DNA from: a virus
Taxonomy: Duplodnaviria; Heunggongvirae; Uroviricota; Caudoviricetes
Virus record (IMG/VR): IMGVR_UViG_2698536450_000019
Direction: 5' to 3' (one strand)
Length of the DNA stretch: 6,508 nucleotides
The first letter of the stretch is position 1. Every line of letters starts with the position of its first letter. Below are positions 1 through 3,000 of this stretch, piece by piece. The position numbers were made by a program.

Positions 1-3000
1 TCAATAAATCCCATCATTGCGATCAACCTCATCCTTAACCATTGATGCGAGCAGTTCTTCCAGTTTCTGCGCTGACAGCTTTACCTGGTGATCTTCAGCA
101 TCTTCCCGGGCTATTGTGGTTCGCGCAGTGGCTGATTTTGCTGACATCACCACAGGGGGCAGACGGACCATTGAACCATGGCCTCCGGAACAAATAAGGG
201 CAAAAATAACAACCACTATCGAAAGCTCACAAACTAACCGCAGCACGTTCCTGCATACGACGTGTCTGCGGCATAATCCCAATGATTACTCCCTGACAGG
301 GTTTGCAGGCCACTCAATATCAGGTGCAGTTGATGTATCAACACGATTCAACAATACCCGATATTTATTCCATGCCTCCAGCAACGATCTTTCTTCCTCC
401 GTTGCGATTTCCAGATCTACAGCATCCTGCAGTGGCGCAATATACTCACTGAATTCCTGGATGTAGAACTGTGTGGTGACGGTCTTCCAGCCATTCGGCT
501 CCTGCTGTATCGAAGCATACCAGGCTATTTCAATATCGCTATGCTGCGGCAGCATTTAACCCCTTGTAATTCATCGCCATAATTGATTTAATTCACAAAT
601 AAAACTATAACATGGTGAAATCAATGAAAAAAAACACAGATGATGGGGCTAAAATTTACACACCACTTACCCTAAAGCTTTATGACTGGTGGGTTTTGGG
701 AGTATCAAATCGGCTTGCATGGGGATGTCCTACAAAGGAACACCTTCTTCCACACTTTCTGGAACATGTAGGTAACAACCATCTGGATATTGGTGTTGGA
801 ACTGGGTTTTACCTTACTCACGTACCTGAGAGTAGTCTGATATCTTTAATGGATTTGAACGAAGCTAGCCTGAACGCGGCATCTACAAGGGCTGGGGAAT
901 CAAAAATTAAACATAAAATTAGCCATGATGTTTTTGAACCTTATCCCGCGGCGTTACATGGTCAATTTGATTCCATTTCCATGTTTTACCTTCTTCACTG
1001 CCTGCCTGGAAATATATCTACAAAAAGCTGTGTAATACGCAATGCGGCGCAGGCCTTAACTGACGATGGAACTCTATACGGAGCCACAATTCTTGGCGAT
1101 GGAGTTGTGCACAATAGCTTCGGTCAAAAACTGATGCGCATTTACAATCAGAAAGGCATCTTTTCAAACACAAAAGATTCCGAAGAAGGCTTAACACATA
1201 TACTCTCAGAGCATTTCGAGAATGTTAAAACCAAGGTTCAAGGTACTGTAGTAATGTTTTCCGCTTCAGGGAAAAAATAGCATCCAACCGCAGCACGTTC
1301 TTGCTTAAGACGTGCTGCGGCATAATCCCAATGATTACTCCCTGACAGGGTTCGTAGGCCACTCAATATCAGGTGCAGTTGATGTATCAACACGGTTCAG
1401 CAACACCCGATACTTTTTCCAGGCTTCCAGCAATGAGGTTTCTTCCTCCGTTGCAATTTCCAGATCTGCAGCATCCTGAAGCGGCGCAATATGCTCACTG
1501 GCTACCTGCATCAGGTTGTTTTTTGTTTCTTCCGCCTCCCGGATCCGGAACAGTTTTTCTGCTTCCGTATCCTTCACCCAGGCTGTGCCGTTCCACTTCT
1601 GAAACTCCCCTTCCGGCGATAACCAGGTAACATTTTCCGGTAACGGACCGAGTTCAGAAATAAATAACGCGTCGCCGGAAGCCACGTCATAAACCGTTTT
1701 ACCCCGATGGTCTTCAAAGAGATGCCACGATGACTCATCACTGTTGAAAACAGCCACGAAGCCTGCCGGAATATCTAACGGTGCAATATCGGTACTGTTT
1801 GCAGGCAGACCTGTATGAGGCGGAATATATGCGTCACCTTCACCAATAAATTCATTAGTTCCGGCCAGCAGATTATAAATTTTTATGGTCCGTGGTTGTT
1901 CACTCATTCTGAATGCCATTATGCAAGCCTCACAATATAGTTAAATGCGATGTTTTTGACGGTGTTTTCCGCGTTACCAGCAGCGTTAACGGTGATGGTG
2001 TGTCCATGTGAACCAATCGCAACGGAGTGCGCATGAGCACCAATTGGAACAGAGTGCGCATGGTTACCTGTAGTGCTTGTGGCACCAGACCAGGTTCTGG
2101 AAGCGTTAAAGTTTACAGGAACACCATAAGTAAATTGAGAGCCCGTAAATCCATGGGCTGGCGCAGAGCCACCCAGTGTAAATGCTCCACTTGCTGTATA
2201 GAAATTACCGCTATCACTTCTGAAGTAACCGAGAGTACCGGTAATTTCCATAGTGCCTCGGCTGTGGTTATGGTCACCAGTGGCATTTGAAGACTTAGTA
2301 CCATAATCAAACGACGACGTGGTTTTCGTCCCCAAATCCGTACTGGATGCACTGGCGCTGTGGGTGTGCGATTTAATGCCGTCCTGTTCCTGAGATAATA
2401 CGGCCCGACCACTGGCAGGTTTGCCCTTAATCGTCCAGCCACGCATATCAGGGATCACGCCTGACGGATAAGCAGCTGCAAGTTTCGGGTAAGCAGATTT
2501 GTCAAAAGTCTGCCCCTGCATCAGGGCATAACCAGACGGAACGGTATCTGATGGCCACGGGATTGGTGCGCCAGGCGGATAAAACTGCTCTGATGGCGTA
2601 TAGAGTGAATAAACTGTACCGTCCGTTAACCCTTCCGGCTTATTAGCAGAATATGCTGGTGACGTATGAATCGTCACGCTGGCATTACTGGTATAATCCC
2701 ATTGAATATTTACACCAGTCGCATAATTTCCGATTGCAACGTAAATATCGTAAGTATCACCAGATGTATTGACCCAGGCAAAATTTGTAAACCCTGTCGA
2801 TGTGCGCTGCCATAAAGCACCAGTAATCCCCTTCGGATTACCATTACCTGCACGCAAAACAAGTTCAGATATACCTGCCTGTTGAGGTGAACCGACGTTA
2901 AATCCAGCGCCACCAATCAACGTAATTGAAACAACAGAACTCGCCTGTGGCATGGTTACCGTTGCTAATTTGAACCAACCAGCACCACCGCTGAATGACA

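What the first reader, a model, noticed from the sequence alone, without database searches (positions are those of the whole stretch)
1288..1320. Conserved strong hairpin immediately 3' of both tfa-type ends, positioned between convergent genes
A perfect 11-bp inverted repeat with an 11-nt loop lies 14 nt past the tfa stop and 8 nt past the convergent methyltransferase stop. A near-identical hairpin (one bulged T) occurs at 238-271 after the 89-aa ORF. Being kept in both diverged repeat copies suggests function. Possibilities are a bidirectional terminator that insulates the late operon from the cargo gene, an RNase III or stability element, or part of the recombination linker itself. The U-tract is not ideally placed on either strand, so this is not a canonical intrinsic terminator.
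Basis: seen in the sequence. Interest (0 to 1): 0.4.

Follow-up and report, generated by a model that had tools for sequence, protein, structure and literature searches.

The report
Conserved prophage terminator hairpin at module junctions
The hairpin is real and kept by selection for its pairing, but it is not special to tail-fibre-assembly genes: it is one copy of a very common terminator-type stem-loop that marks gene-module boundaries at the far end of the late operon in lambda-like prophages of E. coli.

Summary
Positions 1288-1320 form a perfect 11-bp stem with an 11-nt loop (-21.9 kcal/mol on either strand). Positions 238-271 hold a near-identical copy with one bulge.

The window is the tail end of a lambdoid prophage: J, lom, stf, tfa, a ybcY-type methyltransferase and a tfaX remnant, as in K-12 DLP12.

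The hairpin is not tfa-specific. Phage lambda has it after tfa and again between ea47 and ea31. K-12 has it in DLP12, Rac and Qin. In many prophages it follows unrelated genes.

In its full form it heads a ~96-nt conserved element, hairpin plus a 62-nt tail, found in 5243 of 5426 complete E. coli genomes. Sequences on both sides of the element are unrelated between contexts.

The stem evolves by compensatory changes at four pairs, so pairing is under selection.

Published Term-seq puts RNA 3' ends in the U-run right after the Qin copy, on the strand equivalent to the window's + strand. The Shigella sRNA CssrB ends in this exact hairpin on the other strand.

Best reading: a terminator-type, 3'-end-forming hairpin at a mosaic junction, duplicated here with the ybcY cassette. 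Both window copies lack a good U-tract, so they are probably weak terminators. It is a new member of a known kind, of modest interest.

The parts
1288..1320 (.). Hairpin copy 1: perfect 11-bp stem, 11-nt loop, between the tfa stop (1335-1337, -) and the ybcY-like stop (1278-1280, +).
   Evidence: (I8). The covariance model R1 scores 60.2 bits at 1284-1325(-). It is identical to the 3' terminal hairpin of Rfam CssrB.
238..271 (.). Hairpin copy 2: same stem with one bulged base (T265 on +, A on -). This is the commoner bulged form of the family.
   Evidence: R1 scores 44 bits at 234-276(-). The terminator scan flags it on the - strand with tail GTTAGTTTGT.
214..237 (-). Remnant (about 24 nt) of the conserved 62-nt tail that follows the hairpin in full elements. 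It reads TTAGTTTGTGAGCTTTCGATAGTG on the - strand; homology ends here.
   Evidence: 58-nt match, hairpin plus 24 nt, to full elements.
1281..1287 (-). Seven-base remnant of the same tail (TTGGATG on the - strand). Beyond it lies the 3' end of the ybcY-like gene.
   Evidence: L022 and L151 have the same hairpin followed by TTGGATGGTGAACTTTCGATAG..., the full tail.
1335..1919 (-). tfa, tail fibre assembly gene (194 aa), last gene of the late operon in this window.
   Evidence: Pfam Caudo_TAP, E = 2.2e-44. 92-93% DNA identity to lambda tfa.
612..1280 (+). ybcY-like class I SAM-dependent methyltransferase (222 aa), a cargo gene convergent with tfa.
   Evidence: Pfam Methyltransf_12/23/25/11. Annotated as YbcY or class I SAM-dependent methyltransferase in relatives.
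286..555 (-). tfaX-like 89-aa ORF. Only residues 31-86 match the C-terminal part of Tfa.
   Evidence: Pfam Caudo_TAP, profile positions 75-130 only. Equivalent to K-12 tfaX.
1286..1511 (.). Direct repeat copy B (3' part of tfa plus hairpin).
   Evidence: D1 and D2: 89-90% identical to 236-462.
236..462 (.). Direct repeat copy A (3' part of tfaX plus hairpin).
   Evidence: D1 and D2.
556..583 (+). Promoter-like site upstream of the ybcY-like gene (TTAACC, 16 nt, CATAAT). Consensus match only.
   Evidence: The number of such sites in the window is no higher than in shuffles, so this is weak.

Best explanation
The hairpin is one copy of a widespread extragenic stem-loop whose pairing is conserved. 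In lambdoid phages and prophages it lies at the distal end of the late (tail-fibre) operon and at the edges of cargo modules. As RNA it works as an intrinsic-terminator-type hairpin that forms or protects 3' ends. Depending on its flanks, it can serve either or both of two converging transcription directions.

In this window it occurs twice because the ybcY cassette (methyltransferase, tfa 3' remnant, hairpin) sits inside a 227-bp duplication whose outer end is the hairpin. Copy 1 closes both tfa (- strand) and ybcY (+ strand). Copy 2 closes tfaX.

Both copies are fused to the lambda-type tfa end (…GATTATG|CCGCAG). They therefore have no U-run on the + strand. On the - strand, copy 2 has an imperfect U-run (UUAGUUUGU) and copy 1 a displaced one (UUGGAUGCUAUUUUUU). 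They are probably leaky terminators that mainly define or stabilise 3' ends. Because the hairpin is conserved across otherwise unrelated neighbours, it is also where homology between phages begins and ends.

Shown: the structure, its conservation, its covariation, its position at junctions, and termination at a homologous copy.

Inferred: that these two particular copies terminate or stabilise transcripts, and how efficiently.
For: 1. Structure: -21.9 kcal/mol on both strands, z about -6.

2. Homology: lambda has the hairpin 15 nt after tfa, CCGCAGAAACGTT...AACGTTCTGCGG followed by TTAGTTAGT (-20.2 kcal/mol). Lambda has a second copy at 24162-24256. K-12 has copies in DLP12, Rac and Qin.

3. 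Distribution: the tfa/hairpin/ybcY junction region occurs in 4439 of 5426 complete E. coli genomes. The full 96-nt element occurs in 5243 of 5426, median 2 and up to 8 places per genome. It is in 197 phage records, including phi80, HK106, HK446, mEp234, phage 21 and Stx phages.

4. Covariation: in a sample anchored on the tail and so unbiased for the arms, 16 bulge-less variants give 89.2% paired cells. Four of 11 pairs have changes on both sides, in 12 cells. The covariation score is 0.244 against 0.163 in shuffles (0 of 500 as high), and sliding the partner drops pairing to 20-49%. With a covariance-model alignment of 48 distinct sequences, 90.8% of cells pair and 18 cells have double changes against 5.0 +/- 2.0 in shuffles (0 of 500).

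5. Experiment: Adams et al. 2021 (PMC7815308, supplementary file 1) list Term-seq 3' ends at MG1655 1632571(+) and 1632574(+). The listed sequence is ...CGCAGCACGTTCTTGCATAAGGTGTGTCTGCGGTTTTTC..., which places them in the U-run directly after the Qin copy.

6. The Shigella sRNA CssrB (about 180 nt on a northern blot with a strand-specific probe; 3' end taken from a predicted rho-independent terminator; PMC3071730) ends in the identical hairpin in the tfa-sense orientation, with the same downstream ybcY sequence as window copy 1.

7. Junctions: E. coli matches stop at window 1320 or start at 1284. Left flanks of the hairpin are unrelated among contexts.
Against: Neither window copy meets the U-tract criterion on the + strand; both are followed by CAUAAUCC.

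Copy 1 has only 3 U in the first 8 nt on the - strand.

In K-12 DLP12, whose hairpin has a C.A mismatch, no Term-seq 3' end is listed at the hairpin. A Rho-dependent termination region lies at 582001(-), about 110 nt past it in the ybcY sense. That direction therefore reads through.

Late transcripts made under Q antitermination are expected to ignore intrinsic terminators (established knowledge of lambda Q). Termination of the late operon proper at this hairpin is therefore doubtful.

The 3' end of CssrB was predicted, not mapped.

Hairpin stability shows no strand preference across 66 variants (32 versus 34, p = 0.38). That fits bidirectional use but equally a DNA-level role.
Confidence: 0.6

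Rival explanations
1. Recombination linker. The hairpin, and in full elements its 62-nt tail, is kept as a short island of shared sequence at which lambdoid phages exchange modules by homologous recombination (Red/RecT or RecA). Any RNA role is secondary.
For: Unrelated sequences abut the element on both sides. Homology breakpoints coincide with the hairpin edges. One variant (L079) has a lambda-type left arm and a window-type right arm, giving an A.G mismatch, as expected from a crossover inside the hairpin. L283 and L314 have junctions at or inside the hairpin. The window's ybcY cassette is bracketed by repeats that end at the hairpin. Lambda does acquire prophage DNA through short diverged homologies (PMC3945230).
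Against: The arms change by compensatory substitutions. That preserves pairing, not sequence identity, and it lowers the homology a linker would need. A 33-nt segment is marginal for homologous exchange. This reading is compatible with the main one, since a conserved terminator becomes a crossover point, rather than being a true alternative.
Confidence: 0.15
2. The hairpins in this window are relics carried along by the duplication and by descent from a lambda-like tfa end. They have no present function in this context.
For: Both copies lie inside one 227-bp repeat. Both lack the A-run or U-run that most family members have. Only short pieces of the conserved tail remain. The K-12 DLP12 copy tolerates a C.A mismatch and shows no 3' end.
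Against: Copy 1 is a perfect stem and identical in 65+10 sampled viral contigs with the same flanks. In E. coli genomes, 2141 records match the junction region at 99% or more. The same hairpin with the same flank is the presumed 3' end of an RNA seen on a northern blot. The family as a whole is under structural selection.
Confidence: 0.15
3. The hairpin is the terminator of a small, unannotated transcription unit (an sRNA or shared 3' UTR of about 90 nt) read opposite to the late genes. That unit is the 62-nt conserved tail plus the hairpin plus a U-run. The window holds only truncated remnants of it.
For: The tail is highly conserved in sequence while the stem covaries. In reverse orientation most copies have a U-run after the stem. 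The Qin copy has Term-seq 3' ends there, classed 'orphan'. The far boundary of the conserved block reads TAAAAT, TAGAAT, TACAAT or TATAAT, a TAnAAT box, in that orientation.
Against: -35 matches at the proper spacing are poor, mostly 2 of 6, and there is no extended -10. No start-site data could be found. There is no Rfam family. The one obvious tail helix (GGCUGG/CCAGCC) shows no compensatory change (inspection). In some contexts a dinI-like gene ends about 7 nt from the tail, so the tail may simply be a 3' UTR. Both window copies lack most of the tail.
Confidence: 0.1
4. RNase III processing or retroregulation site, like lambda sib, acting on read-through transcripts.
For: Around copy 1 the - strand RNA is predicted to extend the stem with an outer helix (86 nt, -40.1 kcal/mol, z = -6.1).
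Against: The continuous stem is 11 bp, shorter than the roughly two helical turns RNase III needs (established knowledge). The outer helix pairs the tfa and ybcY coding ends and is absent around copy 2 and in other contexts, whose flanks differ.
Confidence: 0.05

Closest known systems
Rho-independent (intrinsic) terminators, including bidirectional terminators between convergent genes
   Same: A G+C-rich stem of 10-11 bp placed a few nucleotides after stop codons of convergent genes. Many family members have an A-run before and a U-rich run after the stem. One homologous copy (K-12 Qin) has mapped 3' ends in the U-run.
   Different: The two window copies have no U-run on the + strand and an imperfect or displaced one on the - strand. 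The loop is 11 nt, although 3 inner pairs can shorten it to 4. In full form the hairpin comes with a 62-nt sequence-conserved tail, which ordinary terminators lack.
Rfam CssrB (RF02799), chromosome-encoded Shigella sRNA B
   Same: The last 32 model positions, its terminator hairpin, are identical to window 1320-1289 on the - strand. In loci L127 and L132 CssrB is followed by the same convergent ybcY, tfaX and second hairpin.
   Different: The 5' 145 nt of CssrB (A+T-rich, not tfa) are absent from the window. The score is 32.6 bits against a gathering score of 76.
Morons of lambdoid phages (autonomous cargo units with their own promoter and terminator; my knowledge of Juhala, Hendrix and colleagues, not re-read here)
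   Same: ybcY is a cargo gene of opposite orientation inserted after the last late gene. It has a promoter-like site upstream and a hairpin 7 nt after its stop. lom in the same window is flanked by two canonical terminators.
   Different: The hairpin after ybcY lacks a U-run. In K-12, ybcY-sense transcription ends by Rho further on.
REP/BIME repetitive extragenic palindromes of E. coli
   Same: A short imperfect palindrome repeated at many extragenic 3' positions, often between convergent genes. REPs are thought to act on termination and mRNA 3' stability.
   Different: The sequence is unrelated as far as I recall the REP consensus (not tested). This family is confined to lambdoid prophage DNA, with 1-8 copies per genome rather than hundreds.
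Lambda sib/tI retroregulator
   Same: A hairpin in the lambda b/att region that acts on converging or read-through transcripts. In one locus (L182) the element lies directly next to the sib/tI-attP sequence.
   Different: It has a different sequence and position, a stem too short for RNase III, and no conserved extended helix.

Membership tests
Intrinsic (Rho-independent) terminator | Stable G+C-rich stem | tested here: met
   11 bp with 8 G-C pairs, -21.9 kcal/mol, z about -6 on both strands.
Intrinsic (Rho-independent) terminator | Short loop (about 3-8 nt) | tested here: inconclusive
   The nominal loop is 11 nt. The predicted fold adds 3 inner pairs and leaves a 4-nt loop in copy 1. Copy 2 keeps an 8-9 nt loop.
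Intrinsic (Rho-independent) terminator | U-rich tract directly 3' of the stem | tested here: not met
   + strand: CAUAAUCC after both copies. - strand copy 1: UUGGAUGC, then UAUUUUUU 10 nt away. - strand copy 2: UUAGUUUG (5 of 8 U), the only case picked up by the scan.
Intrinsic (Rho-independent) terminator | RNA 3' ends mapped just after the stem | not testable with these tools
   There are no data for this prophage. For the homologous K-12 Qin copy, which has a U-run, the answer is yes: 1632571 and 1632574 (+). For the K-12 DLP12 and Rac copies, which lack a U-run on that strand, none are listed.
Bidirectional terminator | A-run upstream and U-run downstream of one hairpin between convergent genes | tested here: not met
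   The convergent genes are present (tfa/ybcY). The A-run AAAAAA at 1272-1277 is 10 nt from the stem and nothing follows the stem on +. Many other family members do have GAAAAA before the stem.
Rfam CssrB (RF02799) | Score at or above the gathering threshold (76 bits) over the 180-nt model | tested here: not met
   32.6 bits at 1289-1351(-) and 14.6 bits at 239-302(-). Only the terminal hairpin aligns.
RNase III site (sib-like) | About 20 bp or more of near-continuous double-stranded RNA, conserved | tested here: not met
   The stem is 11 bp. The outer helix is predicted only around copy 1 and depends on flanks that differ in other copies.
Hin/Gin/Pin invertase crossover site | 26-bp site with the AAACCNNGGTTT core | tested here: not met
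   There is no such core in or next to either hairpin. The single 1-mismatch match in the window is at 1228-1239 inside ybcY, and 33 of 200 shuffles do as well.
Hairpin family defined here (covariance model R1) | Match to the model built from 16 independent variants | tested here: met
   Window 1284-1325(-) scores 60.2 bits and 234-276(-) scores 44 bits. Copy 1 was among the sequences used to build the model, so its score is partly by construction. Copy 2 was not.
REP/BIME | Match to the REP consensus | not tested
   No REP model is available in the tools. The sequence looks unrelated from memory only.

The most novel reading that the evidence does not exclude
The hairpin is the terminator end of an unannotated element of about 96 nt carried by nearly all E. 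coli genomes on lambdoid prophage DNA: a covarying stem-loop plus a 62-nt sequence-conserved tail that ends in a TAnAAT box. The element would be either a small RNA gene read opposite to the late genes or a dedicated insulator at the late-operon/attachment-site end of prophages. The two hairpins in this window would be its truncated remnants.
Probability: 0.2. Interest if true: 0.6.

Novelty: new member of a known kind. Interest (0 to 1): 0.35.

Why it matters
For this window, the result turns an unexplained hairpin into an ordinary feature: the shared terminator-type stem-loop that closes the tail-fibre operon and the convergent cargo gene, and that marks where the ybcY cassette was joined.

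More broadly, the same stem-loop and its 62-nt tail form an unannotated element in about 97% of complete E. coli genomes and in lambda itself. The element always lies where phage modules of different origin meet. That makes it a concrete, testable case for two old questions. One is how the Q-antiterminated late operon and converging transcription are bounded at the prophage end. The other is whether conserved boundary sequences guide mosaic exchange among lambdoid phages.

It also shows that the 3' hairpin of the Rfam family CssrB is a generic prophage terminator rather than an sRNA-specific feature.

Tried and rejected
- Rfam search of the window and of full elements gave no family for the hairpin or tail beyond the partial CssrB hairpin match. 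The IS009 hits are tfa coding sequence, not the hairpin.
- Lambda records carry no annotated terminator after tfa.
- Literature searches for a lambda terminator after tfa, for ybcY plus terminator, for literal sequence strings of the element, and for a ydfJ-ydfK sRNA found nothing relevant.
- HnrS (EcOnc10-12), a multicopy prophage sRNA, was considered and set aside. It is 66 nt and almost confined to EHEC/EPEC, whereas this element is near-universal.
- Start-site data were sought in three sources. Thomason 2015 is not held, and the Cappable-seq and SMRT-Cappable-seq supplements had no entries near 16324xx-16325xx.
- A test for strand bias in hairpin stability, which would show which RNA strand is selected, found none.
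- RNAalifold on a MAFFT alignment of full elements failed, because MAFFT misaligns the bulged and bulge-less forms. It was replaced by a bulge-less subset and a covariance-model alignment.
- A loose hairpin detector for flank composition picked up false positives, and its counts were not used.
- Search for a -35 box upstream of the TAnAAT box gave only poor matches.
- An invertase crossover site was not found at the hairpins.
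Full report
**What the window is.** The window is the distal end of the late region of a lambdoid prophage, read on the - strand.
- It holds the C-terminal part of J (5405-6502), a disrupted lom (4740-5337), an 889-aa side tail fibre gene stf (1919-4588) and tfa (1335-1919).
- Beyond tfa lie a convergent class I SAM-dependent methyltransferase (612-1280, +) and an 89-aa ORF (286-555, -). The last 56 residues of that ORF are the C-terminal part of Tfa.
- This is the tfaD-ybcY-tfaX arrangement of the K-12 cryptic prophage DLP12. 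Several lambda-like phages share it.

**The observation.** Positions 1288-1320 are CCGCAGCACGT / TCTTGCTTAAG / ACGTGCTGCGG.
- This is a perfect 11-bp inverted repeat with an 11-nt loop.
- It folds at -21.9 kcal/mol as RNA on either strand, z about -6.
- It lies 14 nt from the tfa stop and 7 nt (not 8) from the methyltransferase stop.
- Positions 238-271 hold the same stem with one bulged base, 14 nt after the 89-aa ORF.
- Both hairpins are the outer ends of one 227-bp direct repeat, 236-462 versus 1286-1511, 89-90% identical. Their joint presence in the window is therefore one event, not two.
- A perfect 11-bp hairpin arises in about 4% of dinucleotide shuffles of the window. The case for function must come from comparison with other sequences.

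**The hairpin is old and widespread.**
- Lambda has it 15 nt after its tfa stop: CCGCAG-A-AACGTT, loop GTATGAAAT, AACGTT-CTGCGG, then TTAGTTAGT (-20.2 kcal/mol).
- Relative to the window, stem pair 7 has changed from C:G to A:T.
- K-12 has copies in DLP12 (582112-582144, with a C.A mismatch), Rac (1434731-1434764) and Qin (about 1632532-1632565).
- The junction region of the window matches 4439 of 5426 complete E. coli genomes.

**It is not a feature of tfa ends.**
- I first collected 130 loci through the Tfa protein. Most lambda-type tfa genes are followed by a variant of the hairpin. Other tfa types have a different hairpin or none.
- I then searched a viral contig collection for the stem itself, and separately for a sequence downstream of it.
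- The hairpin follows at least a dozen unrelated sequences. These include three kinds of tfa end, Pin-type invertase genes, short A-rich spacers after other genes, and, in lambda, the ea47-ea31 spacer.
- In most of these places the hairpin is followed by a strongly conserved 62-nt tail: YTGGCTGGTGAACTTTCGATAGTGCGAGTATTGAATGATTTCCAGCCGTTACCGATTTTACG. After the tail the sequences diverge again.
- This ~96-nt element is present in 5243 of 5426 complete E. coli genomes, with a median of 2 and up to 8 places per genome. It is almost never annotated.
- It is also in 197 phage records: lambda at 24162-24256, phi80, HK106, HK446, mEp234, phage 21 and many Stx phages, where it lies near the end of the record.
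- Typically it sits between the last tail-fibre or cargo gene and the attachment-site end of the prophage. Examples are Qin next to ydfJ, Rac near ttcC, and L182 directly beside the sib/tI-attP sequence and int.
- In the window, copy 2 keeps the hairpin plus 24 nt of the tail (to about position 214). Copy 1 keeps the hairpin plus 7 nt (TTGGATG), after which the ybcY 3' end begins.

**Pairing is selected.**
- The tail-anchored sample does not depend on the arms being intact.
- Sixteen bulge-less variants, aligned without gaps, give 89.2% paired cells.
- Four of 11 pairs have changes on both sides: C:G to A:U, C:G to U:A, A:U to G:C and C:G to U:A. These occupy 12 cells.
- The covariation score is 0.244 against 0.163 +/- 0.020 in shuffles (0 of 500 as high). 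Sliding the 3' partner by 1-3 columns drops pairing to 20-49%.
- A covariance model built from these variants was run over 79 sources. It gave 48 distinct sequences with 90.8% paired cells. Eighteen cells had double changes, against 5.0 +/- 2.0 in shuffles (0 of 500). That alignment is fitted to the model and leans towards the structure.
- The loop and the bulged base vary freely.
- Hairpin stability shows no preference for either RNA strand (32 versus 34 of 66 variants, p = 0.38).

**Experimental anchors.**
- Adams et al. 2021 (PMC7815308) list curated Term-seq 3' ends in E. coli MG1655 at 1632571(+) and 1632574(+), classed 'orphan'. The printed sequence is ...CCAGCCAATCGCAGCACGTTCTTGCATAAGGTGTGTCTGCGGTTTTTCAACT....
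- That is the Qin copy read in the orientation of the window's + strand. The ends fall in the U-run just after the stem (fold).
- The same tables list no 3' end at the DLP12 or Rac copies, which lack a U-run on that strand.
- They list a Rho-dependent termination region at 582001(-), antisense to tfaD and about 110 nt past the DLP12 hairpin in the ybcY sense.
- In the other orientation, Rfam CssrB, a Shigella flexneri sRNA, ends in the very hairpin of window copy 1. The RNA is about 180 nt on a northern blot with strand-specific probes, and its 3' end was set by a predicted rho-independent terminator (PMC3071730).
- In loci L127 and L132 the full CssrB match is followed by the same ybcY (convergent), tfaX and second hairpin, but preceded by A+T-rich sequence that is not tfa.

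**How it most likely works here.**
- The family behaves as a terminator-type hairpin whose efficiency and direction depend on its flanks.
- Many copies have GAAAAA before the stem, which gives a canonical U-run for transcripts coming from the attachment-site or cargo side.
- After lambda-type tfa genes the stem is joined to ...GATTATG or ...GTGATATG. That leaves no U-run in that direction.
- In the window the + strand therefore reads CAUAAUCC after both stems.
- The - strand reads UUAGUUUGU after copy 2, which is the one site the terminator scan reports there. It reads UUGGAUGCUAUUUUUU after copy 1.
- I conclude that both copies are at best leaky terminators. They can still fix or protect the 3' ends of tfa/tfaX-sense RNA, and perhaps of ybcY mRNA. 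This is inference; nothing was measured for this prophage.
- Late transcripts made under Q antitermination should read through such a hairpin (established knowledge). For them the stem could only act as a barrier to 3' exonucleases.

**Rivals.**
- The recombination-linker idea fits the junction pattern and a chimeric hairpin (L079). Compensatory evolution argues that pairing, not sequence identity, is what is kept. The two ideas are compatible.
- A relic without present function cannot be excluded for these two truncated copies.
- The full element could be a small RNA gene read opposite to the late genes. Three things suggest this: the conserved tail, the U-run with a mapped 3' end, and a TAnAAT box at the far boundary (TAAAAT, TAGAAT, TACAAT, TATAAT). 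Against it, -35 matches are poor, no start-site data were found, and the tail shows no covarying helix.
- An RNase III site is unlikely. The stem is 11 bp and the extended helix is not conserved.
- No invertase crossover core lies at the hairpins.

**Comparison and novelty.**
- The hairpin works like an intrinsic terminator at a moron or module boundary, and it resembles REP elements in being a repeated extragenic palindrome.
- It fails the U-tract criterion in this window. It is not a member of CssrB (32.6 bits against 76).
- I found no description of the hairpin family or of the ~96-nt element.
- I file the finding as a new member of a known kind, of modest interest.
- The element as a whole deserves a proper look, because it is nearly universal in E. 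coli, present twice in lambda, and unannotated.

Noticed in passing
Lambda J02459/NC_001416 24162-24256 (L001 3158-3260); K-12 MG1655 1632469-1632570; loci L138-L329: A conserved element of about 96 nt: the hairpin plus a 62-nt tail, YTGGCTGGTGAACTTTCGATAGTGCGAGTATTGAATGATTTCCAGCCGTTACCGATTTTACG. It is present in 5243 of 5426 complete E. coli genomes and in lambda, phi80, HK phages and Stx phages. It is unannotated and has no Rfam family. Its flanks are unrelated between contexts.
   Followed up: partly
Right boundary of that element (for example L154 about 8790-8800; MG1655 about 1632469-1632477): Read opposite to the late genes, the conserved block starts with a TAnAAT box (TAAAAT, TAGAAT, TACAAT, TATAAT in different copies), like a -10 hexamer. 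-35 matches are poor.
   Followed up: partly
window 1378-1576 (-) and 329-532 (-): Rfam IS009 (RF02111) matches at 225 and 112.5 bits fall entirely inside the tfa and tfaX coding sequences. The same holds in lambda and many loci. This 'RNA family' appears to be the conserved 3' half of tfa.
   Followed up: partly
window 4740-5337 (-): lom is split into two overlapping ORFs (4740-5183 and 5167-5337), which suggests a frameshift or pseudogene. Two canonical terminators (4607-4636 and 5367-5386, - strand, stem plus TTTTT) bracket it.
   Followed up: no
window 286-555 (-): The first ~30 residues of the 89-aa tfaX-like ORF have no similarity to Tfa. Only residues 31-86 match Caudo_TAP profile positions 75-130. 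It could be a small C-domain-only protein rather than a simple truncation.
   Followed up: no
window 1222-1247 (+), inside the ybcY-like gene: TTAAAACCAAGGTTCAAGG resembles, from memory, the core of Hin/Gin/Pin crossover sites (AAACCNNGGTTT, one mismatch), about 50 nt from hairpin copy 1. It is not significant on its own (33 of 200 shuffles), and no invertase gene is in the window.
   Followed up: partly
window 1-147 (-) and 1-75 (+): A 48-aa ORF (MSAKSATART...) downstream of hairpin copy 2 has no Pfam or NCBIfam match. In related phages a + strand gene, annotated as hypothetical or as a lactone hydrolase, ends about here. Hairpin copy 2 is therefore probably also between convergent genes.
   Followed up: partly
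window 2952-4365: The Ala/Ser-rich repeat region of stf produces long spurious ORFs on both strands (335-379 aa) and weak sub-threshold Rfam isrG matches. These are composition artefacts.
   Followed up: no
L076 and L105, just after tfa: A different hairpin, CTGCAGGATATTAT-ATGGG-ATAATATTCTGCAG followed by TTTATT, occupies the same place after another tfa variant. It has a similar stem base (CTGCAG versus CCGCAG) and a good U-run.
   Followed up: no
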